32,894 nt of DNA from Pseudomonadota bacterium (GCA_043818915.1 JBDRFJ010000121.1:1-32894); one strand, 5' to 3'. Numbered from the stretch's first letter, positions 9,863 to 32,561 are shown. The notes: generated from the letters alone by a model not told the origin. Program-made: numbers and translations.

Positions 9863-9896
9863 TTGAAACCTGATAGGAATTACAATGGAATACATT

Positions 9897-9938
9897 CAAT
9901 TCCTCAATCCCTCAATTCGCAATCCCTAAATTTCATTT
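9897..9938. repeat. Third copy of the AATTCC..AATCCCT..AATT dispersed motif. It overlaps the stop codon of the ATP-grasp gene.
   Basis: caattcctcaatccctcaattcgcaatccctaaatttc shares the AATTCCT/AATCCCT/AAATT blocks with 8129-8226 and 30192-30223. Confidence 0.6.
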
Positions 9939-10702: not shown

Positions 10703-10729
10703 TCAACCACGAAAAATCCCGGTTTTAAT

Positions 10730-18369: not shown

Positions 18370-19494
18370 ATGGGCACTGATAACGTAATCTTTTTAGAGG
18401 TAATAGAGTGGTTTGATGAAACAGGCCAGGAACTGGTGCATAGAATTCCGGAACAAGGTTCAGGTGAGATCAAATTCGGAGCTCAACTCACTGTGCGAGA
18501 GAGTCAGGCGGGTATATTATTCTACAAAGGTAAAGCATGCGAGGCTTTCGGGCCAGGCCGCCATACCCTGAGCACTGCAAATATTCCAGTCCTAACAAAA
18601 ATCCTGGCCCTGCCCTGGGGCATGACCAGTCCACTACGCGCCGAGGTCTATCTCGTCAATATGAAGGTCTTTACCAACCTCAAATGGGGTACACGAGATC
18701 CGGTGGCCTTCAAGGATTCGGAATTAGGACTCATACGGCTCCGAGCCCACGGAGTGTTTAATATCCAGGTAGTCCAGCCTCTCCTGTTTATCAACAGTCT
18801 GGTAGGCACCATGGGCAGATACACCACGGAAGAGATCGAAGAATACCTCCGACTCGTCATTATCTCGCGCCTTAACGACTACCTCGGCGAGCACTTAGAC
18901 AGCATCCTAAATCTTCCCGGAAGTTACGACGAGATCTCCGTAAATCTGCAAAAACGACTGCAAAATGATTTTAGCCACTTTGGACTGGCCTTGACTCACC
19001 TCTATATCACCTCCGTTACACCTCCGGCTGAAGTGCAAGAGGCCATTGACGACATGAGTCGCCTCAGCGTAATTCAGGACCTTGACAAACTGGTAAAGAT
19101 GAAAGCGGCAATGGCCATGGAAAAGGCGGCTGAATCGACCGGCGACGCCGGCGCGGGAATGGGCATGGGATTGGGCTTCATGATGCCGGCCATGTTTGCC
19201 GATATGTTCAGACCACAGAGCGGGGCTGCCGCTGCCTCGCAAGAAATCAAGTGCCCGGACTGCGGTTATGCTATTTCCAAAGATGCCAAGTTCTGTCCAC
19301 ACTGCGGTCACCAGCAGTTGGTTTTTGGTCAGTGCGTCAACTGCGGCAAGAATATGCCGCCCAACGCCGAATTTTGCCCCAAGTGCGGTCACCCGGCAGA
19401 CGAAAAGCCTGTTCCCAAAGCCTGCCCCCATTGCAAGGCCGAAAATCTGGCCGGCTCTATGTTCTGTAATCAGTGTGGGGAAAAGTTAGGATAA
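18370..19494 (+). CDS. SPFH/band-7-like protein with C-terminal tandem zinc ribbons (YdjI-like, COG4260 'putative virion core protein' family)
   Basis: The N-terminal region (FYKGKACEAFGPGRHTL...PLRAEVYLVNMKVFTNLKWGT) resembles the Bacillus subtilis YdjI family pattern (RAEV.FVN.K.FT..WGT). A Gly/Met-rich linker (GAGMGMGLGFMMPAMF) is followed by four CxxC pairs (CPDCG, CPHCG, CVNCG, CPKCG, CPHCK, CNQCG). Confidence 0.8.
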   Translation: MGTDNVIFLEVIEWFDETGQELVHRIPEQGSGEIKFGAQLTVRESQAGILFYKGKACEAFGPGRHTLSTANIPVLTKILALPWGMTSPLRAEVYLVNMKVFTNLKWGTRDPVAFKDSELGLIRLRAHGVFNIQVVQPLLFINSLVGTMGRYTTEEIEEYLRLVIISRLNDYLGEHLDSILNLPGSYDEISVNLQKRLQNDFSHFGLALTHLYITSVTPPAEVQEAIDDMSRLSVIQDLDKLVKMKAAMAMEKAAESTGDAGAGMGMGLGFMMPAMFADMFRPQSGAAAASQEIKCPDCGYAISKDAKFCPHCGHQQLVFGQCVNCGKNMPPNAEFCPKCGHPADEKPVPKACPHCKAENLAGSMFCNQCGEKLG

Positions 19495-19495
19495 A

Positions 19496-20725
19496 ATGAA
19501 CCTTACGGTTGAGCAAGAGTGTCCCCAGTGTGGAGCGCCTATAGAGCTGGACGAAACCGACCATGTGCTGCGCTGTCCTTATTGTAATGTAAAAAATTTC
19601 CTTTTTGCCCCGGATCATTTTCGTTTTGTGTTACCGCATAAAGCGACCAACAAGGAGATCATTTACGCGCCGTATCTCCGCTTTAGAGGGAATGTCTATT
19701 CTTGCCAGAGCCAGGCTATCCAACACCGCGTCGTTGACATCACACACCTGGGAACAACTTTAAAGGGCCTTCCCGTCTCCCTGGGGGTGAGGCCCCAGGC
19801 CATGAAGATGAAATTCGTCACTCCAGATCTGGCCGGCTCGTTTTTAAAGTCCTCAGTCAGGACAAGCGACATGCTGACCGCGGTCGGGAAGCATGCCTCG
19901 CTTTTTATTTCCGGCAAGACCTTTCACCGCGCCTATATCGGTGAGGCCTTAAGCCTTATCTATCTTCCAGTGTTTTTGGCAAACAACATGATCGTTGACG
20001 CAGTGACCAACAGCCCCATCACGAAACTCCCTTCTGATCACGACATCTTTGAACCAACCGTAATAAATAAAAATCCCAACTGGGGGCTTACCTTTATGGC
20101 CACCCTCTGCCCACAGTGCGGCTGGAATCTGGAAGGTGAAAGGGATAGTGTGGTCTTGACTTGCAGCAACTGCGATACTGCCTGGGAGGCCTCGAAAGGC
20201 AAATTTACCCGGGTGGATACCTCAATAATACCAGGCCGGGGAACAAACACGGTATATATGCCCTTTTGGAAGATATCGGCTACGAGCAAAGGAGTGGAAA
20301 TAAACTCTTACGCCGACTTCATCCAGGTCACCAATCAGCCACTGGTAGCTAAAAAGGATTGGGGAAAACAAGATATGAATTTCTGGAGCCCGGCCTTTAA
20401 AATTCGGCCAAAGATCTTTTTGCACCTGTCAAGGCAACTGACCATCTTGCAGCCAAATTTTCGGGCAGAAAAGGGATCCGCCAAGAACAATCTCTATCCC
20501 GTGACACTGCCCCAAACCGAGGCCGCGCAAGGGATGAAGCTGACTTTGGCAGGATCGGCCACTATCAAAAAGAAGATCATGCCCCTCCTAACGCGTCTCA
20601 ACTTTAACATAAAGGATTCAAGCCTGGTTTATCTTCCATTCACGGACACGGGGCACGATATGGTCCAGCAACAAACGCCGGTCAGTATAAACAAAAAGGC
20701 TTTGGAGTTCGGACGCCATCTGTGA
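19496..20725 (+). CDS. Internally duplicated double zinc-ribbon protein (two CxxC-x~17-CxxC ribbons, each followed by a ~170-aa domain). Possible YdjG-like partner of the SPFH protein.
   Basis: CPQCGAPIELDETDHVLRCPYCN matches CPQCGWNLEGERDSVVLTCSNCD, and the downstream repeats match too (IYAPYLRFRG/VYMPFWKISA, SLIYLPVF/SLVYLPFT). Its start codon lies 2 bp after the stop of 18370-19494, indicating translational coupling. Confidence 0.7.
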   Translation: MNLTVEQECPQCGAPIELDETDHVLRCPYCNVKNFLFAPDHFRFVLPHKATNKEIIYAPYLRFRGNVYSCQSQAIQHRVVDITHLGTTLKGLPVSLGVRPQAMKMKFVTPDLAGSFLKSSVRTSDMLTAVGKHASLFISGKTFHRAYIGEALSLIYLPVFLANNMIVDAVTNSPITKLPSDHDIFEPTVINKNPNWGLTFMATLCPQCGWNLEGERDSVVLTCSNCDTAWEASKGKFTRVDTSIIPGRGTNTVYMPFWKISATSKGVEINSYADFIQVTNQPLVAKKDWGKQDMNFWSPAFKIRPKIFLHLSRQLTILQPNFRAEKGSAKNNLYPVTLPQTEAAQGMKLTLAGSATIKKKIMPLLTRLNFNIKDSSLVYLPFTDTGHDMVQQQTPVSINKKALEFGRHL

Positions 20726-20817: not shown

Positions 20818-21933
20818 TTACTTCTCCCTTGAAGCCGTTGTCGGAAGTACCACCGTGAAGGTGCTGCCTTTGCCTAATTCACTTTCTAATTCTATCCTGC
20901 CGCCAAAGGTTTTCACGATATTATCAATGATGAAGAGCCCCATACCCATACCTTCTTTTTTTGTGGTATAGAAGGCCCCAAAAACTGTCTTTAAATTCTC
21001 TTTAGGTATGCCGGGGCCCGTATCTTGAACAGCTATGTACACACAATTATTATCTGAACTCCCTTTGATAATAATTTTACCCTTCATCCCCTCCATAGCC
21101 TGAGATGCATTGCGAATGAGATTGAGAAATATCTCTTCGAAATGGACATAATTACCTTCAATCTTGGGAATACCTTCATCCAGCTCCTTGATAATCTCTA
21201 TATTAATCAAAAGACGCTTAAACCCGTCTTTTGCCATTTCAATGGAAGCGTCTACTACATTATAGATATCGACTTTTTCCACATGACCAGGTTTGGCAAA
21301 ATCGCTGAGCCGTCCTACAATGTCTGTTGAACGCTTCGCATATTCCTTCGTTTTTATTAAGAGGCCATCTAACTCGGGATCACTAAAGCCCTTCATTTGC
21401 ATGTGCTTAAGGATGCAATCTATGCCAAGGTTGATTCCGGAAATTGTATTGTTGATCTCATGCCCGATACCGGCTGACATTTCAGCAATAGTGATCAATT
21501 TTTCAGATTTGATCAGGCATTGCGTAGCCGCTTCTAAGTCTTCTTTCATTTGATAATATTCAATTGCCTGCTTGATGATAAGTTCTATATCATGCATCGG
21601 CAAATCTTTTCGGATATAACGATAGACATCTCCTTTATTTATCGCATCAACAGCGGCTTCTATGTCAGAATAGGCAGTAATTAAAATCCTTACAATCTTA
21701 GGGTGGGCTTCTTTAATCTGAGTTAACAATTCTACCCCGGACATTTCAGGCATACGTTGATCGGAGATAACCACGGCAATGTCTTCTTTGCTCACAATAT
21801 CCAGGGCCTCGGCGCCGCCTGAAGCAGTGGTCAAATTATAATCTAATTCAAAAGCAAAGATCAGATTCTCCAGATTGTTTAATTCATCATCGACCAATAA
21901 TATCTTGTAGTTCTTATAGTCCAGCTTTGTCAT
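20818..21933 (-). CDS. Hybrid response regulator-histidine kinase (REC plus HisKA-like plus HATPase_c)
   Basis: Receiver region (ILLVDDELNN...VISDQRMPEMSG). H-box-like EMSAGIGHEINNTISGI. ATPase motifs LIRNASQA, DTGPGIP and GMGMGL. Confidence 0.88.
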   Translation of the reverse strand: MTKLDYKNYKILLVDDELNNLENLIFAFELDYNLTTASGGAEALDIVSKEDIAVVISDQRMPEMSGVELLTQIKEAHPKIVRILITAYSDIEAAVDAINKGDVYRYIRKDLPMHDIELIIKQAIEYYQMKEDLEAATQCLIKSEKLITIAEMSAGIGHEINNTISGINLGIDCILKHMQMKGFSDPELDGLLIKTKEYAKRSTDIVGRLSDFAKPGHVEKVDIYNVVDASIEMAKDGFKRLLINIEIIKELDEGIPKIEGNYVHFEEIFLNLIRNASQAMEGMKGKIIIKGSSDNNCVYIAVQDTGPGIPKENLKTVFGAFYTTKKEGMGMGLFIIDNIVKTFGGRIELESELGKGSTFTVVLPTTASREK

Positions 21934-22020: not shown

Positions 22021-25000
22021 TTACTTCGGCTGCCTGATAGGCAGGACGATGGTGAACTCTGTTCCCTGTCCGGGAATATTATTTACATCGACAGTTCCGT
22101 GGTGAGCTTTAATAATATTATAACAAATACTTAATCCTAAGCCGGAATTTTGACTGTCTTTGGTGGAAAAAAAAGGAGTGAATATCTTGGAAAGGTGTTC
22201 CTGAGGGATGCCCAGGCCATCATCGGCTATGGTGATGGTAACATTATCTTCGTCTTGCGCTGTCTTGATCCGGACCGTGCCCTTCTCTTCCATGGCCTGG
22301 TAGGCATTTATCAGCATATTCATAACAACTTGATTGATTTCTTCCATTCGACACTCTATGTTGGTTATCTCACCGTACTCCTTGTGAACCGTAACCTTGT
22401 TTTTAATCATAGGCAAAACCATGGCAAGGGTGTCGTCAATCCCTTTGTTTATATCAGAAAAAGCAATTCCTTCTTTATTTTTCCGGGAAAAATCAAGCAG
22501 AGAGTTCACAATAAAAAGAGAATGTTTTATGGCCTTATTATTGGTATCTAATGCTCTTTCGAGACTTTTGTACGTATCTTTTATGTCGAGCTTACCTTCC
22601 GAAAGCATGGTCAAACGCTTGTTGATACCATCTAAGCCTGCCCGTAAGCAGTATATGTTGTTTTTTATTTCATGGGCTACACCGGCAGCCAACTGGCCCG
22701 CGGTCTCCAGCCGCGCCGCTTGCACGAGTTGTACTTGTGCTTCCTCAAGTTTATGTAAGGCGTCTTTTAACTCTAAATTGCTTTTGTTTAATTGAGCCTG
22801 AAGCTCTTTTTTCGTTAGTAAGGAATCAACCACCGCGTGCAATTCATTGGGATTGAATGGTTTGGCAACATATTGATCCGCGCCATGTTTCAGGCCCGCA
22901 ATTTTATCATCAATGCTGGTCTTAGCTGTTAATAAGACAAGCGGTATGTGCTGCGTCCGCTCGTCGCTCTTAATCTTTTCGCACAACTCATACCCATCCA
23001 TTTCAGGCATCATCACATCCGATACGATGAGATCAGGCATTTTCTCGTTAACTCTATCCAGCGCTTGTTGACCATTATACGCTACAAATACATGATAGAA
23101 TTTTGTTAGACTTTTAGCGATGTTGCCGGCTAAGTCCCTATTGTCCTCCACTACCAGGACACTTTTTTTCTTTTCACCTGTCCCAGCTACCCCGTTAACT
23201 GTTTCTTCAGAATATTCTATTCCCTGTCCGAGGTCAGAAAATTGTACTTGTAATAAATCAATAGTCTCTCTATCTTCTCCCGTTATCTCGCGTCTGTCCC
23301 AACCTCTTCGCTCTTCTTGACGCCGCTGTTCCTCCCTGCGTTCTACAAACCCGTCGCTTGTCTCAAAAGCCTGTTCGCCTTCAAGTTCGTGACTTTCATA
23401 ATGATCCATGCCTTTCCGTAGATGAACGGTAAACGTTGTGCCTTTGCCCAATTCACTCGTCACATCAACAGATCCATGGTGCAATTCAACAAGCTCCTTC
23501 ACAAGGCACAGCCCAAGGCCTGTCCCTTCGTACTTCCGTGAGTTGGAGCCGTCCACCTGTTGGAATCGATCAAAAATATAAGGCAGGTCCTCTTGAGCAA
23601 TACCGATACCTGTATCATTTATCCGTACCTCAATATGGTCGTTCGCCTCCTTAGTCTTGATTTCTACTTTGCCTCCGCGATCAGTAAACTTTAAGGCATT
23701 ACTTATTAAGTTCGAAAAAACTTTTTCCATCTTATCCGTATCCAAATAAATCTCAATCAATTGATTGTCCGGCTCAAATACTAAGTCAATGCCCATTTCT
23801 TTAGCCCCGATGGAAGAGGCTACGACAACATCTTCCAGGATACTGTTTAAATCTCGCAGGCTGGCCTTAATTCCCATTTTGCCTGCTTCGAGCTTGGAGA
23901 TATCAAGTATTTCGTTAATACGCTTGAGTAATTTTCGGGCATTCCTCAGCATAGCCTTCTTTTCTTCGGTATTCTCAGGATCTAACTGTTCGCCAAACTT
24001 TGATAATACGTTTTGTAGGGGCAGAATTATATTGGTTAAGGGCGTGCGCAACTCATGGCTGACTTTGGCGAAAAATTCATTTTTGAGGGAGTCGAGTTTT
24101 TTTAGTTCCTCGTTAGCGCGTTTCAATTCGTTGGTTCTTTCCTCCACTTTTTGCTCAAGGTTAATATTTAATTCGTTTATTTCTTCATACTTACGACTGT
24201 TCTCAACAGCTACGGCCAGTTGGTTTGCCATGGTTGAAAGCACTTTCAGTTCTTCCCTTGAATAATCGCCGGCACTTTCCTTCTCGGATATAACCATAAA
24301 ACCTGTTAGTTCATGTTCAAATTTTATTGGAATACTTATATATGCCCCGAGCTCGTCAAGCTCCTTTAGTATTGACATATCACTGGGACTGTCTTTACTC
24401 GCTTTCTCATTTTTGACTATTTCATCTGTATCTTGCATGTATTGTACTAACGCACTACTTCCATCGATTTTATAATCCCCTTTATATCTTCCGTAAGATG
24501 ATCTGAGTTCGTATTGTCGATCATTAGTTAACAAATACGTACCAAAGGCATTGGTATCTATAGCACTGGCAATCGTTTCTGTAGTATTTGATAGAAGTTC
24601 TTTAAGGTTTTGCAGGTTGGCAATTTTTCTTGAGAGATCATCTAAAGCTTCTCTGTAATCAAACGCCCCCTTAAAAAGTATATTCTCAAGATTTCTCTGG
24701 GCCTGCACTTTTATCCTGGGAAATATGAAACCAACGAGGACAAATAGAGCACCTAATACAGGGTAATAGAAAACTGGGGCGAAATATTTTTCTGCAATTA
24801 TAACAACACCAAAACAGGGCGTGATAAGTACCAGAAGGACCAGCGAGTACGCAAAGGTCTTCTTGATAATAACTCTAATGTCCATGAGTTGATGCCTGAC
24901 TATGGAGTATGCTATAAGTGATATCCAGGCTAACGCAATAAAATGACCGAATGGATAACTCTCTACACCGCAGTCTGTGGCAACATCTGCACCCCCGACA

Positions 25001-25548
25001 AGACCTATGACGTAGGCAACGAGTAGATATTTTAACCTATTGCGTTCTTTAGCGCCTTCGGCGGTCGCCTTCATCACAAGTAGCAGTTCTCTAAAACTCA
25101 GGACGAAAATCACAACGAAAGTGAGAAAGAATGTTTGAGCACCAACATGGTTTACTTTCGTATGATACCCCCAATAGTAATCATGCAGCCCTGTGACCAA
25201 TTTATCCGTAGTAAGCACCAAAATACAAAAGATAATACTGTTTATGTATAGCAAAACAAGTGTCTTTCTTCTCTCTTCCGCCTTGTGAAGAAAGCTCACC
25301 GTGAAATGATAAAATAACGTCGGGATGAAAACTACGCCCGTATAAAGAAACTTAGCGCACCACAAAGCAAAAGATTTATTTGTTGTCGAATACATCATGA
25401 AATATCCGAACAACCACATGAAGACGCAGAGACATTCGAAAAAAAAGGTGATGTTAGCCGTAGACCTTCTATTTTGCAAAAATACAAATATACCTACCCC
25501 AAAAACTAGCAAACTTGAAATTAAGGGCGGAAGGGAATATATTGTCAT
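22021..25548 (-). CDS. Large hybrid sensor histidine kinase: N-terminal multi-TM sensor (7TMR-DISM-like), GAF-like region, coiled coil, HisKA/HATPase core 1, Glu/Arg-rich linker, REC, second HisKA-like/HATPase core
   Basis: There are 6-7 N-terminal TM helices. Core 1 has FFAKVSHELRTPL, DTGIGIA and GTGLGL. The linker is EERREEQRRQEERRGWDRRE. The receiver region is VLVVEDNRDLAG...DLIVSDVMMPEMDG. Core 2 has GVAHEIKNNIYCL, DDGLGIP and GLGLSI. Confidence 0.9.
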   Translation of the reverse strand: MTIYSLPPLISSLLVFGVGIFVFLQNRRSTANITFFFECLCVFMWLFGYFMMYSTTNKSFALWCAKFLYTGVVFIPTLFYHFTVSFLHKAEERRKTLVLLYINSIIFCILVLTTDKLVTGLHDYYWGYHTKVNHVGAQTFFLTFVVIFVLSFRELLLVMKATAEGAKERNRLKYLLVAYVIGLVGGADVATDCGVESYPFGHFIALAWISLIAYSIVRHQLMDIRVIIKKTFAYSLVLLVLITPCFGVVIIAEKYFAPVFYYPVLGALFVLVGFIFPRIKVQAQRNLENILFKGAFDYREALDDLSRKIANLQNLKELLSNTTETIASAIDTNAFGTYLLTNDRQYELRSSYGRYKGDYKIDGSSALVQYMQDTDEIVKNEKASKDSPSDMSILKELDELGAYISIPIKFEHELTGFMVISEKESAGDYSREELKVLSTMANQLAVAVENSRKYEEINELNINLEQKVEERTNELKRANEELKKLDSLKNEFFAKVSHELRTPLTNIILPLQNVLSKFGEQLDPENTEEKKAMLRNARKLLKRINEILDISKLEAGKMGIKASLRDLNSILEDVVVASSIGAKEMGIDLVFEPDNQLIEIYLDTDKMEKVFSNLISNALKFTDRGGKVEIKTKEANDHIEVRINDTGIGIAQEDLPYIFDRFQQVDGSNSRKYEGTGLGLCLVKELVELHHGSVDVTSELGKGTTFTVHLRKGMDHYESHELEGEQAFETSDGFVERREEQRRQEERRGWDRREITGEDRETIDLLQVQFSDLGQGIEYSEETVNGVAGTGEKKKSVLVVEDNRDLAGNIAKSLTKFYHVFVAYNGQQALDRVNEKMPDLIVSDVMMPEMDGYELCEKIKSDERTQHIPLVLLTAKTSIDDKIAGLKHGADQYVAKPFNPNELHAVVDSLLTKKELQAQLNKSNLELKDALHKLEEAQVQLVQAARLETAGQLAAGVAHEIKNNIYCLRAGLDGINKRLTMLSEGKLDIKDTYKSLERALDTNNKAIKHSLFIVNSLLDFSRKNKEGIAFSDINKGIDDTLAMVLPMIKNKVTVHKEYGEITNIECRMEEINQVVMNMLINAYQAMEEKGTVRIKTAQDEDNVTITIADDGLGIPQEHLSKIFTPFFSTKDSQNSGLGLSICYNIIKAHHGTVDVNNIPGQGTEFTIVLPIRQPK

Positions 25549-26039: not shown

Positions 26040-27407
26040 CTATGTACGGGGCGCAAGCTGATCATTTGACTTAGATTGTACCTTGGCCATATCCGAAAAT
26101 ATCTGCTTGAAATGCCTAGCTACAGATAATCGAGCTTCCTTGTTATAAACCCTCATGTAAATATCCAAAACCCCGGCTTCGAGTTCATCAATTGTTAGGT
26201 GTTTCGGAGCATAGTTCACATCTAAAAACGTATACTTATCCCACGAGGATTCCAACAGTCTCTTCTCCGCTGTCAACCTTTCTCTTAATCTAGTCCCCGG
26301 CAATGGTGTTGGAACAGTGATTTGAGATGCGTAAAGGTTAGTATCAAGAATAAAGTTTGCCACATCATTGAAAACGGAACTCTTGTCGTTATCGAACCCC
26401 ACAAGGAAGGCACCCATTATCCCTATTCCATGTGACTGAATCCTTTGGATAAGCATCGGATAGTCTTTCACCCGGCGCCTTTTCCAATCGTTCTTACTTA
26501 GTCCCTTCAAGTTATCCTCATTAATGCTTTCAAATCCTATTAACAGGATGGTGCAGCCACTTCGTCTCAATTTTTCCAAAAACTTCTCATCATAGCCAAC
26601 GGACACGTCAGTCGATGCCGCCCATCTTATTTTAAGTGGTTCAATCCTATCTAATAGATCATTCGCATATTTCTTGTTAAAAAAAATATTGTCATCTGCG
26701 AAATTAATTTGATAATTACCCCACGTATCTATAACATAATCTATTTCTCTCATTACTTGGTCTATCGACTTATGCCTGTACTTTAAGCCAAAAACCTTGG
26801 ATGCTGCACAAAACTCACAATCATGTGGACAACCTCTACTCGTTTGTATCCACACCATCTTATAGTGCTCAATATCCAGCAAATCGTATCTTGGAACTGG
26901 AGAGTTTCTTAAATTAAAATAGCTGGCAGATTTATAGCATCGTTTCAGCCTCCCGTCTTCTACATCCTTAAGTACAGTACTCCATATAGTTTCTACCTCA
27001 CCGATCACTACACTGTCTGCATGCTCAACCGCTTCCTCTGGCATTAGGGTGGGGTGAATGCCGCCAACAATGACCTTGCAATCCCGCTGTCTGAATTTAT
27101 CCGCTAAGTAATACGCTCTGGTCGCTGTTTGGGTTATCGCACTAATACAGACTAAGTCATATTTTTCCTTGAAATCCACCTGCTCAATATTCTCGTCAAT
27201 CAGGCTTATTTCGTGTTCTTCAGGGGTCAGTGCCGCTATTATCAAAAGGCCCAGACTGAAACCGGACCAAAAGTCAAGCCGTGTTGATAATACAGTGTGC
27301 TTGTCTGCATCCCGAACATTGTTCCAGAATTTTTTATACTTTTCGTTCTTGCTGAAGAACGTTCCTTTTGGATTTATAAGAGCTATCTTCATCTGTCTTC
27401 CCCTCAT
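26040..27407 (-). CDS. B12-binding-domain radical SAM enzyme (class B rSAM). The probable start is the Met at 27392.
   Basis: An N-terminal cobalamin-binding Rossmann-like domain (MKIALINPKG...KVIVGGIHPT) precedes the radical-SAM cluster motif SRGCPHDCEFC (CxxxCxxC). Length is about 450 aa. Confidence 0.85.
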   Translation of the reverse strand: MRGRQMKIALINPKGTFFSKNEKYKKFWNNVRDADKHTVLSTRLDFWSGFSLGLLIIAALTPEEHEISLIDENIEQVDFKEKYDLVCISAITQTATRAYYLADKFRQRDCKVIVGGIHPTLMPEEAVEHADSVVIGEVETIWSTVLKDVEDGRLKRCYKSASYFNLRNSPVPRYDLLDIEHYKMVWIQTSRGCPHDCEFCAASKVFGLKYRHKSIDQVMREIDYVIDTWGNYQINFADDNIFFNKKYANDLLDRIEPLKIRWAASTDVSVGYDEKFLEKLRRSGCTILLIGFESINEDNLKGLSKNDWKRRRVKDYPMLIQRIQSHGIGIMGAFLVGFDNDKSSVFNDVANFILDTNLYASQITVPTPLPGTRLRERLTAEKRLLESSWDKYTFLDVNYAPKHLTIDELEAGVLDIYMRVYNKEARLSVARHFKQIFSDMAKVQSKSNDQLAPRT

Positions 27408-27564
27408 TTATGTGCGCTTCACGTAATTAAATTCGATCCAGTGCGGCCAATACCAGGAATCCGAGATTTTTTTCAGGCTGATTCCATCTATTGGTTTTGA
27501 GAAGGCTCTGACTATGTAGCAATTCTTCAATATTGCCATGACATAAACAAAATCAACAAAAACA

Positions 27565-29055
27565 TTACATAGACAATTTATGAGGAATCTTGTATGAGCT
27601 TATCCGTCTCCTCAAAACACGCCTTAGATCGTTCGAAGTGAAACTATCATGATCTCTCCCACGTGTAATCTTAGCTGCTATTTTATGACCCCATACAACA
27701 TCCTCATGCAGATCAAACGTAACATCTTCAACCTGCTTAACCGACAGGATCAGGTTTCTTAGCTCGGCAATATCAACAGCATTACCCCCTACCTTAACAA
27801 TGTGCTTTTTTAATCCTTCAAAGTATACATAACCATTCTGATCGACTTTCCCGTAATCTCCAGTACAAAGCCAGCCATCCTTAAGCACTCTCATGGTATC
27901 ACGTTTATTTCTATAATAACCTGCCATATTTTGCGATGTTTTTATAAGAATTTCTCCTACTTTCCCGATTTCACAATCCCTTCCCTTTTCGTCTACAATT
28001 CTCATTTGGACACCATGGAGTGGAAGTCCCAAAGTCTCTGGTTTGTTATTAGATAAATAATTGCAGGTGACAGGCTGACATTCAGTCAAGCCATAACCTT
28101 GAAGAACATCAAGATTCATCTTCTCTTTTATCAATCTGTTGAGTTGGACAGACATGAAACTGCCACCTGATATGCCATATTTTAGAGAAGATATGTCATG
28201 CTGCGCACTTTTGTAATGTCGCAACAAGGCAGAAAATAACGTTGGTACTAATATTACTATATTAACCTTATTAGATGAGATAGCATGAAAAATCTTTTTA
28301 GAACTATAATTATCTACTATCACAACCTTGGCCCCTACTAAAAGTGGGGCTAAAATGCTTCCTTCCAGCGGAAGTATATGTGTGCATGGCAGTACCAATA
28401 GATGAGTTTCAGTGCTGGACAATTTCCTGTGCCGTATATCATTGAAAGATCCGTGAATATAGTTCGTATGCGTCAACATGGCTCCCAGAGGGTAACCATA
28501 ACCACGATAGGTATAATTAATACTTGCTACTTGTCTCGAACTCGTATTATGTGTTTTCCACCTTTGATCACCATCTCTTCTACCCATTTCATAAAGATCA
28601 CTGAGTGTATGCAATAGTGATTCTTCCAAGTGCCCTTCCTTGTCCAAGATTGGAATCTCCCTCGTTTCTTCTCTCACTATTAGTGTCCTGTTTGCCAATA
28701 AGGAAGGGCTCTCATCCAATATCTTGTTGAGAAGAGTAGGAGTGAGGATTACGACCTCAGGTGTGCAGTTCTTAAAAATCCCGGAAAGTTCCCAGCATGT
28801 CATCTGGGGTTTCACAGGAACTGCTATGGCATTCACATTAAGGAGGGCAAAAAAACTGTAGATAAACTCTTTACAATTTGGAAGGAGTATTGCGACTCTG
28901 GTATTTTTTCTTATTCCTATAGACCTAAATGCGTTTGATAAGGATGCTATCTGTTGCCATAAGCGCTCATAAGATATCTTCTCTTCATCTTCAATAAGGG
29001 CTATCTTTTGAGGGTATGTATCAGCCGTCCTTTTTAGCAAAGAGGACACGTTCAT
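27565..29055 (-). CDS. ANL-superfamily adenylate-forming enzyme (acyl-ACP/acyl-CoA synthetase-like) with a divergent phosphate-binding loop
   Basis: ANL motifs GYGLTE and TGDYGKVDQNGYVYFEGLKKHIVKVGGNAV, plus a C-terminal lysine region SYKIPHKL. The canonical T/SSGTTGxPKG loop is replaced by YTYRGYGYPLGAMLTHTN. Its start overlaps the reductase stop (ATGA). Confidence 0.75.
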   Translation of the reverse strand: MNVSSLLKRTADTYPQKIALIEDEEKISYERLWQQIASLSNAFRSIGIRKNTRVAILLPNCKEFIYSFFALLNVNAIAVPVKPQMTCWELSGIFKNCTPEVVILTPTLLNKILDESPSLLANRTLIVREETREIPILDKEGHLEESLLHTLSDLYEMGRRDGDQRWKTHNTSSRQVASINYTYRGYGYPLGAMLTHTNYIHGSFNDIRHRKLSSTETHLLVLPCTHILPLEGSILAPLLVGAKVVIVDNYSSKKIFHAISSNKVNIVILVPTLFSALLRHYKSAQHDISSLKYGISGGSFMSVQLNRLIKEKMNLDVLQGYGLTECQPVTCNYLSNNKPETLGLPLHGVQMRIVDEKGRDCEIGKVGEILIKTSQNMAGYYRNKRDTMRVLKDGWLCTGDYGKVDQNGYVYFEGLKKHIVKVGGNAVDIAELRNLILSVKQVEDVTFDLHEDVVWGHKIAAKITRGRDHDSFTSNDLRRVLRRRISSYKIPHKLSM

Positions 29056-30158
29056 AATAATATTCTATCCTGAGGAGTTATAAATTGCGCATCAAGGCAA
29101 AATTTAAAAATAGTATGCAAGAGCTTTCTATCTATTTGGGGCCATTCAAATCCATTTTTCTTTAAGATATTCATGGCCCTTCTGTTGTCATATTTCACTC
29201 CATTATGATTAAAGTATGGTATATACGGCTCCAACAGTAGTCTTCGAGCACCTTTCAGTGTGCTCATATCAAAATTCTCCAAAGGTATCCTCTCTGGATC
29301 AGGGTAGCCGAAAAAATCACTCGCGGTTTTAAAGATGAAATCTCCTGTCACATCATGGGTATTGGTCAAATGAAATGTCTCGTTACAAGGGTGGGTGTGG
29401 GCATGAATTCGATATATCGCGTCTGCTACTGAGTCTACTGGTATAAGATTATAGTTGACGCCCCCGTCGGCTGGAATTTGCTTGTAAATTCCTAAAGAAA
29501 AAATGTGGATCGGTTGATATATCACTCTGAAGTTTATCGCATAACCATCTTGAGAATCACCCACGATAGCACTTGGCCTGAAAATATTCACGTTAAGGCC
29601 CTTCGTCCTATACGCGTGGACGAGTTGTTCAGCCTCAAATTTCGTTTGTTCATAGGTGTTCTTAAAATACTGCCCCTTATCTAAAGAATCTTCATAGAAT
29701 GTGCCGTGATACGCTCCGGCGACGGCAACGGTACTGATGTGGTTCACGGACTCAAATGATCCGTTCTTGAGACATTGCAATGCAAAATCAAGGATGTTTT
29801 TTGTCCCTTCTACATTTATCTTCTTTATTCTTTCATACGATACATTAAACTGAGCAAGAGCTGCGCTGTGAAAGATAACAGTAACCTCTCGTGAGAGCCT
29901 TTCTGCATGTTTTTTGCTCAAGCCGAAATCCGGACTTGTTATACTCCCCTCGACAATCTCCACCCGAGGCCTTATCCTGTGGTATTCAGCCTCACTATAT
30001 CGTTCTTTTAATAATCTCTCTACTCTTTGAGGAGCAGAAAGACTTCCCTGCCGCCTCACTAATAGAATCACTTTGACATCTTTATCTTGAAGAAAGCGCC
30101 TGACGAGATAAAATCCCAAAAAGCCAGTGCCACCCGTTATAAGTACTTTTTTACTCAT
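29052..30158 (-). CDS. Thioester-reductase-type SDR (NAD_binding_4 / 'male sterility' family; acyl-thioester to aldehyde/alcohol reductase)
   Basis: N-terminal KVLITGGTGFLGFYLV (TGxxGxxG), a catalytic YEQTK (YxxxK), and an extended C-terminal substrate domain. Length is 368 aa. It overlaps the ANL gene by 4 bp. Confidence 0.8.
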   Translation of the reverse strand: MSKKVLITGGTGFLGFYLVRRFLQDKDVKVILLVRRQGSLSAPQRVERLLKERYSEAEYHRIRPRVEIVEGSITSPDFGLSKKHAERLSREVTVIFHSAALAQFNVSYERIKKINVEGTKNILDFALQCLKNGSFESVNHISTVAVAGAYHGTFYEDSLDKGQYFKNTYEQTKFEAEQLVHAYRTKGLNVNIFRPSAIVGDSQDGYAINFRVIYQPIHIFSLGIYKQIPADGGVNYNLIPVDSVADAIYRIHAHTHPCNETFHLTNTHDVTGDFIFKTASDFFGYPDPERIPLENFDMSTLKGARRLLLEPYIPYFNHNGVKYDNRRAMNILKKNGFEWPQIDRKLLHTIFKFCLDAQFITPQDRILL

Positions 30159-30191
30159 GATATATCTTTATTGCTTTGTAATCCACAATTG

Positions 30192-30223
30192 CTCAATTCC
30201 CCAATTCCTAAATCCCTCAATTT
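30192..30223. repeat. Fourth copy of the dispersed motif (ctcaattccccaattcctaaatccctcaattt), between the PilZ-ACP gene and the reductase gene
   Basis: Near-identical to the reverse complement of 8129-8165 and to 8196-8226 (AATCCCCAATTCCTAAATCCCTnAATT core). Confidence 0.7.
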
Positions 30224-30226
30224 CTT

Positions 30227-31018
30227 CTACACTCTCTGCTCAGAATAATCCTCTACAAGATCCATCATATCTCCTACGGTTATTACCTCTATAACTCTAC
30301 TAACGTCTATTTCTATATCATAGATAGTTTCCAGAACAGCTAACGTTTCCACCGCCATTAGAGAGTCAACACCAAGGTCTTCACGGATTCTCGCGGAATC
30401 GGAAAACGACTCTTCACTGATTCTTCCTACTTGGGCCAAGACCTTCTTAATCTTTTGTCTGTTCTGAGCCCGCTGTTCTTGCTTGAGAACAATCATTTCT
30501 CCCACATAAGAAGAAAGTAAGTCATTCTCAGCCTTGCTCATATTTACAAAACGTAAGCCCATTCCATATTTTGTTTTGACCGACAGTCCTTTTAAATTAT
30601 AGATCCAGGCCACGTCGGCCTTTGGGCTTATATTATTATTTTTCCCCACAAGCTGTATGTTGAGCTTCAATTTCTTCTTTTTAGCTGATAGTTCTTCGAC
30701 AACTGTTTTGTCAGCAATAATAGCATTACAGGAAACCCCTCCAGTGCCTATGTCATGGGTCTGAGCGTCATATTTTGGAAAAAATATTCCACTGGTGTGA
30801 TCCCCGTCAAATACTGTAAAATTAATAGACAACGCTTTTGCTATCCTTGGGTGACTCCGTCTATCAGATATCTCATTCAGTTCCGTCTCAGTATTACGTA
30901 ATTCCATATAATGACCTCCCGTAGCTGTTATATAAATTAACTCCTGCGCAAGCTTGTTTAACAGGTCTAATATCACATTTTTCCCAAAAATGTCCAGACT
31001 AAAATGGGCATAACCCAT
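30227..31018 (-). CDS. PilZ-like domain fused to an acyl carrier protein (phosphopantetheine-binding) domain. The probable start is the internal Met at 30907.
   Basis: The N-terminal half has RRSHPRI (RxxxR) and, ~35 aa later, DIGTGGV (D-x-S/G-x-G-G), consistent with a c-di-GMP-binding PilZ fold. The C-terminal ~75 aa are a canonical ACP (KIKKVLAQV...REDLGVDSLMAVETLAVLETIYDIEID; DSL holds the serine that carries 4'-phosphopantetheine). Confidence 0.7.
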   Translation of the reverse strand: MGYAHFSLDIFGKNVILDLLNKLAQELIYITATGGHYMELRNTETELNEISDRRSHPRIAKALSINFTVFDGDHTSGIFFPKYDAQTHDIGTGGVSCNAIIADKTVVEELSAKKKKLKLNIQLVGKNNNISPKADVAWIYNLKGLSVKTKYGMGLRFVNMSKAENDLLSSYVGEMIVLKQEQRAQNRQKIKKVLAQVGRISEESFSDSARIREDLGVDSLMAVETLAVLETIYDIEIDVSRVIEVITVGDMMDLVEDYSEQRV

Positions 31019-31235
31019 TTATATTTGGCAATATTCTTGTATGTGCCTATGGGAGCTATTTTCAGATATTATTCTCGAGACAAACGGTAAGAATACAGGA
31101 AAGAAACGTGAAAAACGCTATATCAAAATTCAAATGTGATACTTTTTTATATCCCCCCTCACCCTTTCAGCCATCGTAGCCAAGGTTACTAGGGCTGAAA
31201 GAGGAGGGGAAGAAATATGACTTTTTACGTAGTCA

Positions 31236-32561
31236 TCAAAATTGATATTGAATACCCAAGGCAAAGAGATGGACATCGATGTCGACCGAACTGTTGTCAT
31301 AATCTCCGCCAAGGAGTTTGCTGGTTCCTACGGATTGCCGGGAGCCAAAAGAATATTGATAGGCAAAATCAAAGGACCAGTTCTTCCAATTACGACCATA
31401 TCCGAGGGATATCAGGTGTTCGAGAATTCCAGGGATCACCGGCACAAGTGTAGAGCTTGGGACGGGATTTTCGGTATATACATAACCGAGGCGCAGGGTA
31501 TCTGCCATGGACAGGAAATATTCATATCCCAAGCAATAAGAATAACTATCCTTCCAGTCAAGGGCCAAGGTGTCCTGTGGCTTAGTTCCGGCCAAAGCAT
31601 CGAACTCGGCATTGTCACCATTGGAGAGTTTAAACGTTACTTTGTCAAAAGCCGAAGACCAATCAATCCATTTCACATCCGCTGAAATTCTGTGGTCGTC
31701 TTTGAATCGATGCGTAATTCCTACACCCAGGCTCTGGGGCCATGTAAAATCAAACTCAACGTCATACTGAGCCGTAGAGTCTGTTACGGGCAACGGGTAT
31801 CCGGTAGTGTCCAAATCCGCATCCCCACCCATATGGAACTTATCCTGGTAATGATAGGCAAAGCATAGGGTTGTGTTTGACGATATCCGCCACTGTGCCC
31901 CCAGATTCCATGCTAACGCCCAATCATCCCCTTCCAGGTCAAGCAGTGCGGGAACTCCCTGAAGCGGTCCGGTCTGAAAGGTATAGGGCTCCTCGAATTC
32001 CAGCTTGCTGTATGAAGGACCCATTGCAAGGCCTATGGAAATTTGGTCCGTCATTTTCCATCCCAAACCGAACAGGATCTTCGTAAGGGAGGCGTAGGAA
32101 GCATATTTTTGTTCGCCATAAATAGGGTGAACCAAGTCATATTCCGTTGAAAACCCGGCAGGATGATAGACTCCCAGCCCGAGACTGAAGCGGCCCTCAG
32201 CATATCCTTGAGCGTATGAAAAAGAGGGCAAGAAACAAAGAATGTCTTTTCCATCCTGATCATTATCCGCATCTTTGTAGCTCGGAGATAGGAGTAAAAA
32301 ATCAAAATCCGCTTCGACCCTTTTCCCCTTCAGCTCAGTCAACGCGGACGGGTTATCGTGAATGAGCATGCCGTTGTCGCTATGGGCGATATTTGTTCCT
32401 CCTCGCCCGCTGGAGATAGGTCCCATGCTGTCTCGCAAAACTCCGTTAGCGAAACTGTGACTAACTAAACATAAACACATGCAACAGGTAAGTGCCAAAG
32501 CTATGTATATTTTTCTCATTTTTTCCCTACCCCTCCTTTTCTTTTCCATTACAGAACACAT
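31236..32561 (-). CDS. FadL/OmpP1/TodX-family outer-membrane hydrophobic-compound channel (14-strand beta-barrel). The probable start is MRKIY at about 32519.
   Basis: Signal peptide (MRKIYIALALTCCMCLCLVSHSFA). An N-terminal hatch-like segment (SSGRGGTNIAHSDNGMLIHDNPSALTEL; compare the FadL pattern SGLGRA...NPAL). Alternating amphipathic beta-strands and a C-terminal aromatic (GIQYQF). Confidence 0.65.
   Translation of the reverse strand: MCSVMEKKRRGREKMRKIYIALALTCCMCLCLVSHSFANGVLRDSMGPISSGRGGTNIAHSDNGMLIHDNPSALTELKGKRVEADFDFLLLSPSYKDADNDQDGKDILCFLPSFSYAQGYAEGRFSLGLGVYHPAGFSTEYDLVHPIYGEQKYASYASLTKILFGLGWKMTDQISIGLAMGPSYSKLEFEEPYTFQTGPLQGVPALLDLEGDDWALAWNLGAQWRISSNTTLCFAYHYQDKFHMGGDADLDTTGYPLPVTDSTAQYDVEFDFTWPQSLGVGITHRFKDDHRISADVKWIDWSSAFDKVTFKLSNGDNAEFDALAGTKPQDTLALDWKDSYSYCLGYEYFLSMADTLRLGYVYTENPVPSSTLVPVIPGILEHLISLGYGRNWKNWSFDFAYQYSFGSRQSVGTSKLLGGDYDNSSVDIDVHLFALGIQYQF

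What the first reader, a model, noticed from the sequence alone, without database searches (positions are those of the whole stretch)
26040..32561. Split carboxylic-acid-reductase-like (A / carrier / R) gene set, with FadL channel, PilZ-fused carrier and B12 radical-SAM partner
Five minus-strand genes make a coherent but undescribed module. In order they are: a FadL-like outer-membrane importer of hydrophobic acids; a PilZ-ACP fusion; a stand-alone thioester-reductase (TR) SDR; a divergent ANL adenylating enzyme; and a cobalamin radical-SAM enzyme. The reductase and ANL genes overlap by 4 bp, and the carrier gene sits 68 bp upstream of the reductase. Adenylation plus carrier plus TR is the domain logic of carboxylic acid reductases (CAR) and NRPS-like A-T-R reductases, and of LuxCDE in function. 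Here the three functions are separate polypeptides, and the carrier carries a c-di-GMP-receptor-like PilZ domain. The implied chemistry is uptake or activation of a fatty or hydrophobic acid onto the ACP, possible C-methylation or other radical modification by the B12-rSAM, and reductive release as aldehyde or alcohol. Second-messenger gating is possible.
Basis: partly seen in the sequence, partly recalled or inferred. Interest (0 to 1): 0.86.

Follow-up and report, generated by a model that had tools for sequence, protein, structure and literature searches.

The report
PilZ-carrier acyl cassette with sensor kinase
The five genes are real, but they are one version of a widespread, undescribed cassette in which a dedicated acyl carrier protein (here fused to a c-di-GMP-receptor domain) and an unusual acid-activating enzyme always sit next to a membrane sensor kinase, while the reductase and the B12 radical-SAM gene are swappable extras.

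Summary
All five minus-strand genes exist and the domain calls hold: FadL/TodX channel, PilZ+ACP fusion, thioester-reductase SDR, ANL enzyme and B12 radical-SAM. The true carrier start is 30907, giving 226 aa, not 31018.

Two things change the picture.

(1) The ANL belongs to a large clade, at least 765 proteins, mostly Omnitrophota. In it the phosphate loop A3 is replaced by NYTYRGxGxPLG, the A8 Arg is Leu, and the protein ends about 8 residues after YK.P. It therefore lacks the A10 catalytic lysine, and adenylation cannot be assumed.

(2) In 18 non-redundant related loci from at least three lineages, all 14 that extend far enough share ACP + NYTYRG-ANL + a sensor kinase (usually 7TM-GAF), often with REC/HD-GYP proteins. 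TR, B12-rSAM, FadL, an SPT-like oxoamine synthase and a dehydratase-like set come and go. PilZ recurs on the ACP or on a neighbouring protein.

Best reading: a c-di-GMP-wired acyl-carrier pathway. In this window the acyl-S-ACP is reduced to aldehyde or alcohol, and the pathway is coupled to a two-component system. The CAR analogy fits only this variant.

I found no description in the literature. Full-length PilZ-ACP fusions number about 6 clusters among 1.84 billion representatives.

The parts
31236..32561 (-). FadL/TodX-family outer-membrane channel. The likely real start is Met15 at 32519, before a signal-peptide-like MRKIYIALALTCCMCLCLVSHSFA.
   Evidence: Pfam Toluene_X 9.2e-44, 150 bits. 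The NCBIfam FadL equivalog scores only 34 bits against a cutoff of 585. A FadL-family gene holds the same position in L001, L003, L005, L007, L008, L012 and L130. The sequences are only 21-24% identical in L003, L005 and L008, against 72-75% in L001 and L007.
30227..30907 (-). PilZ-ACP fusion, 226 aa. The PilZ barrel is at about 30503-30865, followed by a long linker helix, then the ACP at about 30257-30457. The phosphopantetheine Ser182 (DSL) is at 30362-30364.
   Evidence: Pfam PilZ 32.4 bits and PP-binding 38.5 bits. R17 and R21 (RxxxR), I53, G56, G57 (D-I-G-x-G-G) and D181-S182-L183 are invariant in 19 homologues. The ACP fold gives Foldseek TM 0.8-0.9. The N-terminal model has pLDDT 55, and its top hits are the YcgR, MotI, MrkH and PlzA PilZ domains. 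RBS and start.
29052..30158 (-). Stand-alone thioester-reductase-type SDR (TGGTGFLG, YEQTK).
   Evidence: Pfam NAD_binding_4 3e-61. TIGR01746 scores 181.7 bits, below its 213 cutoff. Nearest PDB entries are the MxaA R domain 4u7w at 1.9e-29, plus PKS, NRPS and CAR R domains. It overlaps the ANL start by 4 bp.
27565..29055 (-). Non-canonical ANL-superfamily enzyme. The NYTYRG motif (residues 180-185) is at 28501-28518. The protein ends at ...YKIPHKLSM.
   Evidence: Pfam AMP-binding 7.7e-70. The alignment to PDB 8wev puts YTYRGYGYPLG opposite YTSGSTGRPKG and ends 25 residues short of that chain. The motif and the short tail are conserved in 5 orthologues, in the Omnitrophota and Spirochaete relatives, and in all 120 best database hits.
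26040..27392 (-). B12-binding radical-SAM enzyme of the BchE/HpnJ-like, DUF4070 type. No subfamily could be assigned.
   Evidence: Pfam B12-binding 49.5 bits and Radical_SAM 55.8 bits. The best NCBIfam hits, BchE at 112 bits and HpnJ at 108 bits, are far below their cutoffs. CPHDCEFC lies at residue 188. The protein is only 46-52% identical to the rSAMs in the other deltaproteobacterial-type and Omnitrophota cassettes, even where the ANLs are 72-78% identical.
22021..25548 (-). Hybrid sensor kinase: HisKA_7TM - GAF - HisKA - HATPase - REC - HATPase.
   Evidence: Pfam. A kinase follows the cassette in every locus that extends far enough. It carries HisKA_7TM in most of them, but not in the recorded domains for L125 or in the one Spirochaete kinase scanned (L018). 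It abuts or overlaps the preceding gene in L128, L127, L018, L012, L130, L126 and L003.
20818..21933 (-). REC + HATPase protein, conserved next to the hybrid kinase in the close relatives.
   Evidence: Pfam. Orthologues of 70-79% identity follow the kinase in L001, L003 and L007. A similar gene lies upstream of the carrier in L125.

Best explanation
This locus is the reductase-plus-rSAM version of a conserved cassette. The cassette is built around a dedicated carrier protein, a dedicated NYTYRG-type ANL enzyme and a sensor kinase.

Proposed mechanism, all steps inferred:
1. A hydrophobic carboxylic acid, most likely a fatty acid, crosses the outer membrane through the FadL-type channel.
2. The ANL enzyme places it as a thioester on the phosphopantetheine arm (Ser182) of the PilZ-ACP.
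3. The B12 radical-SAM enzyme may modify the tethered chain.
4. The stand-alone thioester reductase releases it with NAD(P)H as an aldehyde, possibly reduced further to the alcohol.
5. The PilZ domain makes the carrier itself a c-di-GMP receptor. The second messenger would then gate loading or hand-over.
6. The downstream 7TM-GAF hybrid kinase and REC-kinase, with REC/HD-GYP proteins in relatives, tie the pathway to two-component and c-di-GMP signalling. Either they control flux, or they sense the lipid product.

Shown: gene set, domains, motifs, conserved synteny, and the variability of the accessory genes.

Inferred: substrate class, acyl-ACP formation by an ANL that lacks A3 and A10, c-di-GMP binding, and the direction of the signalling link.
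For: - Domains and motifs.
- TR/ANL 4-bp overlap.
- In 5 of 5 loci found through the ANL (L125-L128, L130), an ACP gene lies one or two genes upstream and a kinase lies downstream.
- Loci found through the ACP show the same pattern in Omnitrophota and Spirochaetes.
- The variable partners all belong to families whose characterised members act on acyl thioesters. They are TR, an SPT/BioF-like oxoamine synthase (L012; the equivalent L130 gene carries only a Pfam Aminotran_1_2 call), and 2-hydroxyacyl-CoA-dehydratase-like proteins with an activase (L127). This argues that acyl-S-ACP is the common intermediate.
- There is a precedent for a dedicated ANL that acylates only its own ACP: AasR/AcpR (PMC9386255).
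- At least 24 TR homologues have a longest contig of exactly the same length as that of an NYTYRG-ANL hit. I take these to be the same contigs, so this is indirect evidence.
- c-di-GMP parts recur. There is PilZ on the ACP in two lineages, PilZ on the protein just upstream of the ANL in L018, a REC-PilZ protein near L128, a GAF-HK-PilZ protein in L125, and HD_5 proteins in L003/L004, L012, L018, L125, L127 and L130.
Against: - The ANL lacks the A3 phosphate loop, the A8 Arg and the A10 Lys. These are required for adenylation in characterised family members, and a PyrG A domain lacking A3 and A10 is inactive (PMC10510592).
- The second PilZ motif has Gly in place of Ser.
- The PilZ structural models are low confidence (pLDDT 55-64).
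- No PPTase, promoter, terminator or riboswitch evidence ties the five genes into one transcript. The gaps of 328, 172 and 491 bp allow separate transcripts in this window.
- The rSAM and FadL genes are dispensable in relatives.
- The substrate is unknown. The ANL's nearest solved relatives include aryl-acid as well as fatty-acid ligases.
Confidence: 0.5

Rival explanations
1. The cassette makes or processes a lipid-derived signal, and the adjacent 7TM-GAF kinase is its receptor. This would be an autoinducer-like synthase/sensor pair with c-di-GMP output through HD-GYP and feedback through PilZ. The swappable enzymes (TR, oxoamine synthase, rSAM, dehydratase) would set the lineage-specific signal structure. 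This is the stronger, more specific version of the best explanation.
For: - Synthase-next-to-sensor is the hallmark layout of the CqsA/CqsS and Rpf (RpfB ANL, RpfC hybrid kinase, RpfG REC-HD-GYP) systems. This point rests on my own knowledge.
- The kinase gene abuts or overlaps the cassette in 7 loci.
- Accessory genes diverge or are replaced much faster than the core. The rSAM is 46-49% identical against 72-78% for the ANL, and FadL is 21-24% against 72-75%.
- One ANL of the clade is fused to a receiver domain (P0097).
- An SPT-like oxoamine synthase, in the same enzyme superfamily as CqsA, occupies the offloading position in L012. A class I/II aminotransferase-family gene sits at the same position in L130.
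Against: - The evidence is purely contextual. No ligand is known for HisKA_7TM.
- The oxoamine synthase scores higher against SPT/BioF models (458 bits) than against the CqsA-type model (202 bits, cutoff 428).
- The kinase could simply regulate the operon.
Confidence: 0.25
2. This is a plain split fatty-acid reductase (CAR/ElbD-like). It supplies fatty aldehyde or alcohol for membrane, ether or wax lipids, and the kinase neighbourhood is only transcriptional regulation or inherited synteny.
For: - The ANL + ACP + TR gene set is the ElbD/CAR domain logic (PMC9131029).
- The FadL neighbour.
- The oxoamine-synthase variants resemble bacterial sphingolipid gene sets (Spt + AcpR + AasR + SDR, PMC9386255).
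Against: - The kinase, HD-GYP and PilZ association holds across lineages with otherwise unrelated flanks.
- A carrier fused to PilZ is not expected for bulk lipid synthesis.
- There is no acyltransferase, AGPS or wax-synthase gene in the cassette.
- The ANL is only 22% identical to AasR, and its motifs differ.
Confidence: 0.15
3. The ANL does not adenylate. It may be a non-catalytic carrier-binding partner. Alternatively it may run only the thioester half-reaction, for example AMP-dependent acyl transfer from acyl-CoA to the ACP. In either case the module is not an ATP-driven acid reductase.
For: - A3, the A8 Arg and A10 are all missing, while A5 (GYGLTE) and A7 (TGD), which hold the adenosine moiety, are invariant.
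- An A domain lacking A3 and the A10 Lys is non-functional in PyrG.
Against: - The replacement motif NYTY[RK]G is itself invariant in the 120 best hits and in all three lineages sampled, which points to a selected catalytic role.
- No other activating enzyme is present in any version of the cassette.
Confidence: 0.1

Closest known systems
Carboxylic acid reductases and NRPS-like A-T-R reductases (CAR, MxaA-type terminal reductases)
   Same: The same three functions are present: ANL-fold activator, phosphopantetheine carrier and SDR thioester reductase. The reductase's nearest solved relatives are the MxaA, NRPS and CAR R domains.
   Different: Here there are three separate polypeptides. The ANL lacks the A3 and A10 motifs. 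The carrier is fused to PilZ. The NCBIfam CAR model scores 84 bits against a cutoff of 1300. The reductase is dispensable in sister cassettes.
AasR/AcpR (with Spt and an SDR) of bacterial sphingolipid synthesis
   Same: A dedicated ANL acylates only its own small ACP, to divert free fatty acids to one pathway (PMC9386255). The E. coli BL21 cluster is ANL - SDR - ACP - Spt. In the L012 version of this cassette an SPT-like oxoamine synthase follows the ACP-ANL pair, and a class I/II aminotransferase-family gene does so in L130.
   Different: AasR is a FAAL-type enzyme with YTSGSTRFPRG and SGK motifs, and it is only 22% identical to the window ANL. The E. coli BL21 cluster examined has no PilZ, no kinase and no rSAM. 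The window version has a TR instead of Spt.
ElbD (Myxococcus ether-lipid enzyme: ACS - ACP - FAR-like reductase - acyltransferase)
   Same: A fatty-acid activating domain, a carrier and a reductase are dedicated to a specialised lipid that is also a developmental signal (PMC9131029).
   Different: ElbD is one polypeptide with an acyltransferase domain. It has no PilZ, no rSAM and no linked kinase.
Lipid-signal synthase/sensor cassettes (Rpf DSF system; CqsA/CqsS). Comparison from my own knowledge.
   Same: A fatty-acyl-processing enzyme is encoded beside a membrane hybrid kinase and, in Rpf, a REC-HD-GYP c-di-GMP phosphodiesterase.
   Different: I found no homology to RpfF. No CqsA-type synthase was detected. 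The related oxoamine synthase scores below the CqsA-model cutoff. Signal production is untested.
PilZ c-di-GMP receptors (YcgR, MotI, MrkH, PlzA, BcsA)
   Same: Pfam PilZ scores above cutoff. RxxxR is invariant. There is a beta-barrel followed by a helix, and the top structural hits are these proteins.
   Different: The second motif is D-I-G-x-G-G instead of (D/N)xSxxG. The domain is fused to an acyl carrier protein, an architecture I could not find described.

Membership tests
Carboxylic acid reductase (CAR) | Single A-T-R polypeptide reaching the NCBIfam NF041592 cutoff | tested here: not met
   There are three separate genes. The TR scores 84 bits against a cutoff of 1300.
Carboxylic acid reductase (CAR) | Adenylation domain with A3 (S/T)(S/T)G(S/T)TGxPK and A10 PxxxxGK | tested here: not met
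   A3 is NYTYRGYGYPLG. The protein ends 5 residues after YKIP. Motif definitions are from PMC10510592.
Carboxylic acid reductase (CAR) | Carrier serine and an SDR reductase with a GxxGxxG motif and a YxxxK motif | tested here: met
   The DSL Ser182 is invariant. TGGTGFLG and YEQTK are present, and the YxxxK aligns with that of MxaA.
Thioester reductase domain (TIGR01746 / Pfam NAD_binding_4) | Score above the curated cutoffs | tested here: inconclusive
   Pfam NAD_binding_4 scores 207 bits against a cutoff of 20.1, which is met. TIGR01746 scores 181.7 bits against a cutoff of 213.35, which is not met. The nearest PDB entries are all carrier-protein thioester reductases.
ANL (class I adenylate-forming) superfamily | AMP-binding fold with A5 and A7 motifs | tested here: met
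   Pfam scores 236 bits. GYGLTE and TGD are invariant.
ANL (class I adenylate-forming) superfamily | ATP-dependent adenylation activity | not testable with these tools
   The motifs that support this activity (A3, the A8 Arg, the A10 Lys) are absent in the whole clade.
AasR-type dedicated acyl-ACP synthetase | Sequence membership in the AasR cluster | tested here: not met
   The window ANL is 22% identical to E. coli BL21 AasR, which keeps the canonical motifs.
AasR-type dedicated acyl-ACP synthetase | ANL gene paired with a private ACP gene | tested here: met
   An ACP gene lies next to the ANL, or one gene away, in every locus examined that holds the ANL gene. L008 ends before its ANL gene.
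PilZ c-di-GMP receptor | Pfam PF07238 above the gathering score, and a PilZ-like fold | tested here: met
   Pfam scores 32.4 bits against a cutoff of 22.5. The precomputed family list includes PF07238 for 33 of the 38 family members. The Foldseek top hits are PilZ proteins, but they come from a pLDDT-55 model with E about 3e-3.
PilZ c-di-GMP receptor | RxxxR and (D/N)xSxxG binding motifs | tested here: inconclusive
   RxxxR is invariant. The second motif is D/N-I-G-x-G-G, with Ser replaced by Gly. More distant PilZ-ACPs have the canonical form, for example RDISEGG in P0163.
PilZ c-di-GMP receptor | Binds c-di-GMP | not testable with these tools
   This needs ITC or DRaCALA.
Class B (cobalamin) radical-SAM enzymes | B12-binding domain plus a radical-SAM core with CxxxCxxC | tested here: met
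   Pfam scores are 49.5 and 55.8 bits, both above cutoff. CPHDCEFC is present.
Class B (cobalamin) radical-SAM enzymes | Assignment to a characterised subfamily (BchE, HpnJ, PhpK, ladderane rSAM and others) | tested here: not met
   The best hit is 112 bits against a cutoff of 481. There is no close solved structure.
FadL long-chain fatty-acid transporter | Toluene_X family membership, and the FadL equivalog | tested here: inconclusive
   Pfam family membership is met at 150 bits. The FadL equivalog scores 34 bits against a cutoff of 585. The substrate is unknown.

The most novel reading that the evidence does not exclude
The cassette is a previously unrecognised family of lipid-signal systems found in Omnitrophota, Spirochaetes and deltaproteobacterial-type bacteria. 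A motif-rewired ANL clade loads a private carrier protein that is itself a c-di-GMP receptor. Swappable thioester enzymes (reductase, oxoamine synthase, B12-rSAM, radical dehydratase) define a lineage-specific hydrophobic product. That product is sensed by the adjacent 7TM-GAF kinase, whose REC/HD-GYP partners reset c-di-GMP. The ANL clade would also represent a new way of carrying out, or bypassing, adenylation without the A3 loop and the A10 lysine.
Probability: 0.25. Interest if true: 0.9.

Novelty: new variant of a known kind. Interest (0 to 1): 0.72.

Why it matters
If correct, three things follow.

- It would be the first case in which an acyl carrier protein is directly a second-messenger receptor. 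That would give c-di-GMP post-translational control over a thioester pathway.
- It defines a large ANL clade with hundreds of members, currently annotated as 'long-chain acyl-CoA synthetase' or 'AMP-binding protein'. Its conserved NYTYRG loop and missing A10 lysine challenge the textbook motif requirements for adenylation. Genome-mining tools probably file these genes as 'NRPS-like'.
- The invariable pairing with a 7TM-GAF kinase offers a testable candidate ligand source for the HisKA_7TM sensor family, for which I found no reported ligand. It also offers a candidate signalling system in Omnitrophota, a phylum known almost entirely from metagenome-assembled genomes.

Tried and rejected
- **Metagenome scan.** None of the 80 loci carries NYTYRG, so it gave no information.
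- **Rfam.** The window and seven related loci gave only tRNAs. There is no c-di-GMP or cobalamin riboswitch.
- **Promoter and terminator scans.** Sigma-70 promoter and terminator hits were at shuffle level. Sigma-54 consensus hits were at chance and not upstream of the genes on the right strand.
- **Upstream alignment.** An alignment of the regions upstream of the carrier gene in 8 loci showed only the RBS conserved.
- **PilZ domain searches.** A profile search of the PilZ half against PDB sequences found nothing. hhalign against a single canonical PilZ aligned only the RxxxR stretch.
- **Literature.** Searches for PilZ+ACP, HisKA_7TM, and Omnitrophota/rSAM/ACP found no description of this cassette.
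- **Fusions.** The TR search found no TR-ACP or TR-ANL fusion among the 120 best hits.
- **AasR membership.** This idea was rejected for the ANL: identity is 22% and AasR has canonical motifs.
- **Premature stop.** The idea that the ANL's short C-terminus is a frameshift or premature stop was rejected, because the short end is conserved across the clade.
- **In-frame TAG.** The in-frame TAG in the TR of L003 and L004 is not independent evidence. The two loci are 100% identical over 10.25 kb.


Full report
**1. The observation**

The region 26040-32561 holds five minus-strand ORFs.
- FadL/TodX channel: Pfam Toluene_X, 9e-44.
- PilZ + PP-binding protein: PilZ 32.4 bits against a cutoff of 22.5, and PP-binding 38.5 bits.
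- SDR of the NAD_binding_4 thioester-reductase type: 3e-61, with TIGR01746 at 2.5e-53.
- AMP-binding (ANL) enzyme: 8e-70.
- B12-binding radical-SAM enzyme.

TR and ANL overlap by 4 bp (ATGA), and the carrier gene ends 68 bp before TR.

Two coordinates need correcting. The carrier gene starts at 30907, not 31018. A GGGAGG box lies 7 nt before that ATG, and most full-length homologues, including the identical NCBI protein, are 226 aa. The rSAM most likely starts at 27392. The window is a complete 32,894-bp NCBI MAG contig labelled 'Pseudomonadota bacterium'.

**2. The carrier**

In an alignment of 19 family members, the PilZ RxxxR arginines (R17, R21) are invariant. So are the ACP D181-S182-L183 and a D/N-I-G-x-G-G stretch at the position of the second PilZ motif, with Gly where canonical PilZ has Ser.

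The AF2 model of the whole protein has pLDDT 64. Its C-terminal domain superposes on ACPs with TM 0.8-0.9. A model of the N-terminal half alone is poor, at pLDDT 55. Even so, its best PDB matches are the PilZ domains of YcgR, MotI, MrkH and PlzA, with E about 3e-3 and TM 0.48-0.61.

More distant PilZ-ACP fusions carry the canonical motif, for example RDISEGG in P0163. The fold and the fusion therefore hold. c-di-GMP binding is likely but unproven.

The fusion is rare. A profile search of 1.84 billion cluster representatives found about six full-length PilZ-ACP clusters. The same PilZ subtype is also found fused to a 4HBT thioesterase, an aldehyde dehydrogenase and methyltransferases, and also to a glycoside hydrolase.

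**3. The ANL enzyme is not canonical**

Aligned to a solved feruloyl-CoA synthetase, YTYRGYGYPLG lies opposite the phosphate loop YTSGSTGRPKG. The protein stops at YKIPHKLSM, 25 residues short of the end of that chain.

These features are conserved in the five closest orthologues, which are 60-73% identical. They are also conserved in the Omnitrophota and Spirochaete relatives, at 28-41% identity. All 120 best database hits carry NYTY[RK]G, with a median of 8 residues after YK.P. Only four of them have a terminal GK.

The A8 hinge Arg is Leu (GLKK). A5 (GYGLTE) and A7 (TGD) are invariant.

According to the review PMC10510592, A3 binds the nucleotide phosphates and the A10 lysine is required for acyl-adenylate formation. 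The same review reports that a PyrG A domain lacking both is inactive.

The clade is large. At least 765 proteins score below 1e-40, and most named ones come from Omnitrophota. They are annotated only as 'AMP-binding protein' or 'long-chain acyl-CoA synthetase'. Whether and how this enzyme adenylates is the main open biochemical question.

**4. Reductase and rSAM**

The reductase has TGGTGFLG and YEQTK. Its closest solved relatives are the MxaA terminal reductase (1.9e-29), PKS and NRPS R domains, and CAR R domains. Its 120 best homologues are all stand-alone proteins. At least 24 of them have a longest contig of exactly the same length as that of an NYTYRG-ANL hit. I take these to be the same contigs, so this evidence is indirect.

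The rSAM has the B12 domain, CPHDCEFC and a weak DUF4070 match. It reaches no curated subfamily: BchE scores 112 bits against a cutoff of 481, and HpnJ scores 108 bits. It has no close solved structure.

**5. Comparative context**

This is the decisive part. The table lists the loci examined. Items in square brackets are single proteins. L008 equals L010, and L002 and L004 duplicate L001 and L003.

| Locus or loci | Lineage or relation | Gene order |
|---|---|---|
| Window, L001, L003, L007 | Carrier 52-76% identical to the window's | FadL - PilZ-ACP - TR - ANL - rSAM - 7TM-GAF hybrid kinase - REC-kinase |
| L005 | Close relative | Same as above, but without the rSAM |
| L008 (= L010) | Close relative, truncated contig | FadL - PilZ-ACP - TR, then the contig ends |
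| L125 | ANL 62% identical | REC-kinase - PilZ-ACP - TR - ANL - rSAM - hybrid kinase - FadL. A GAF-kinase-PilZ protein and a REC-HD_5 protein are divergently encoded upstream |
| L126 | ANL 49% identical | PilZ-ACP - TR - ANL - 7TM-GAF kinase |
| L128 | ANL 41% identical | ACP - TR - ANL - 7TM-GAF kinase, with a 4-bp overlap into the kinase |
| L127 | Complete Omnitrophota genome CP070837 | Dehydratase-like - PilZ-ACP - rSAM - ANL - dehydratase-like - activase - 7TM-GAF kinase - sigma-54 regulator - REC-HD_5 |
| L012 | Omnitrophota | SDR - FadL - ACP - ANL - rSAM - SPT/BioF-like oxoamine synthase - 7TM-GAF kinase - REC - REC - HD_5 |
| L130 | Not assigned to a phylum | (HTH) - FadL - ACP - ANL - class I/II aminotransferase-family gene (Pfam call only) - 7TM-GAF kinase - REC - REC - HD_5 |
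| L011, L016 | Omnitrophota; Spirochaete. Truncated contigs | L011: FadL - ACP - ANL. L016: ANL - ACP - rSAM start |
| L013-L015, L017-L019 | Spirochaetes | ANL - ACP - rSAM - kinase. In L018, the one locus scanned against Pfam: [PilZ...methyltransferase] - ANL - ACP - rSAM - [kinase-REC-HD_5] |

The flanks differ from locus to locus: LexA/DnaE2, miaA/mutL, FtsH/FolP, hydrogenase genes, and histidine/tryptophan biosynthesis genes. The block is therefore conserved in its own right.

The invariant set is ACP + NYTYRG-ANL + sensor kinase. TR, rSAM, FadL, the oxoamine synthase and the dehydratase set are alternatives or extras.

All of these variable partners belong to families that act on acyl thioesters. 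That is the best indirect argument that the ANL does produce acyl-S-ACP.

PilZ and HD-GYP-type (HD_5) proteins recur in all three lineages.

**6. Unexplained patterns**

The window's rSAM is only 46-52% identical to the rSAMs in the other deltaproteobacterial-type and Omnitrophota cassettes (41-42% to the Spirochaete ones). That includes L001 and L007, whose ANL, TR and carrier are 72-78% identical to the window's. FadL is 72-75% identical in L001 and L007 but only 21-24% in L003, L005 and L008, at the same position. The accessory genes are therefore replaced or diversified inside a stable core.

One clade member is an ANL-receiver fusion (P0097).

**7. Comparison with known systems**

The closest mechanistic precedents are these:
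- CAR and NRPS-like A-T-R reductases, and ElbD, for acid-to-aldehyde logic.
- AasR/AcpR, for a private ANL/ACP pair that diverts free fatty acids.

I retrieved the E. coli BL21 sphingolipid cluster, which is ANL - SDR - ACP - Spt. Its AasR has canonical motifs and is only 22% identical to the window ANL. The resemblance is therefore functional, not a matter of family membership.

The layout of acyl-processing enzyme, then hybrid kinase, then REC-HD-GYP recalls the Rpf/DSF and CqsA/CqsS systems. This comparison rests on my own knowledge. No homologue of RpfF or of a CqsA-type synthase was detected. The L012 oxoamine synthase scores 458 bits on an SPT model but only 202 bits on the CqsA-type model, whose cutoff is 428.

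Searches of the paper library found no description of a PilZ-ACP fusion or of this cassette.

**8. Verdict**

The reductive-release chemistry and the c-di-GMP gating are plausible for this variant. However, the 'A' enzyme is a motif-rewired clade whose activity cannot be assumed. The rSAM and TR are accessory parts. The functional unit includes the downstream sensor kinase genes.

I rate it a new variant of a known kind. There is a roughly 25% chance that it is a new family of lipid-signal/c-di-GMP systems.

Negative results are listed under Tried and rejected: Rfam, promoter and terminator scans, the sigma-54 scan, the upstream alignment and the wasted metagenome scan.

Noticed in passing
L003:10764-11867 and L004:9025-10128: The TR orthologue carries a single in-frame TAG at codon 163, where the window has Tyr in 'GQYF'. 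L003 and L004 are 100% identical over 10.25 kb, so this is one strain. It could be a pseudogene, a sequencing error or read-through.
   Followed up: partly
window 26040-27392 compared with L001, L003, L007, L125, L127, L012: The rSAM gene is only 46-52% identical among cassettes whose ANL, TR and carrier are 60-78% identical, and it is absent from several. FadL shows the same behaviour, at 72-75% against 21-24%.
   Followed up: partly
protein P0097: An NYTYRG-clade ANL is fused to a C-terminal response-regulator receiver domain (615 aa). It sits on a 2.7-kb contig.
   Followed up: no
proteins P0165, P0205, P0279, P0034, P0163: The same PilZ subtype is fused to a 4HBT thioesterase, an aldehyde dehydrogenase and SAM methyltransferases. 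One further protein has the architecture HTH_17 + PilZ + ACP.
   Followed up: partly
window 1172-2491 (-): This ORF combines a CarS-like (CDP-archaeol synthase family, PF01864) N-terminal domain with a calcineurin-like metallophosphoesterase domain.
   Followed up: no
window 46-1152 (+): A REC + HD_5 (HD-GYP-type) response regulator. It is the kind of protein that sits next to the cassette in relatives, but here it lies about 20 kb away on the other strand.
   Followed up: no
window 18370-19494 and 19496-20725 (+): A gene pair: an SPFH/Band-7 protein with C-terminal zinc ribbons, then a 409-aa protein with only weak, sub-threshold zinc-ribbon matches. It lies directly beside the REC-kinase gene.
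   Followed up: no
L008:4470-4749: The sequence TGGCATTAGTGTTGCT upstream of the PilZ-ACP gene fits sigma-54 -24/-12 spacing. No equivalent was found in the window or in the other loci.
   Followed up: partly
window 8586-14254 (-): A run of signalling genes: HD phosphohydrolase, RimK-like ATP-grasp, sigma-54 activator with a REC domain, TPR protein, and CHASE3-HAMP kinase. I did not link it to the cassette.
   Followed up: no
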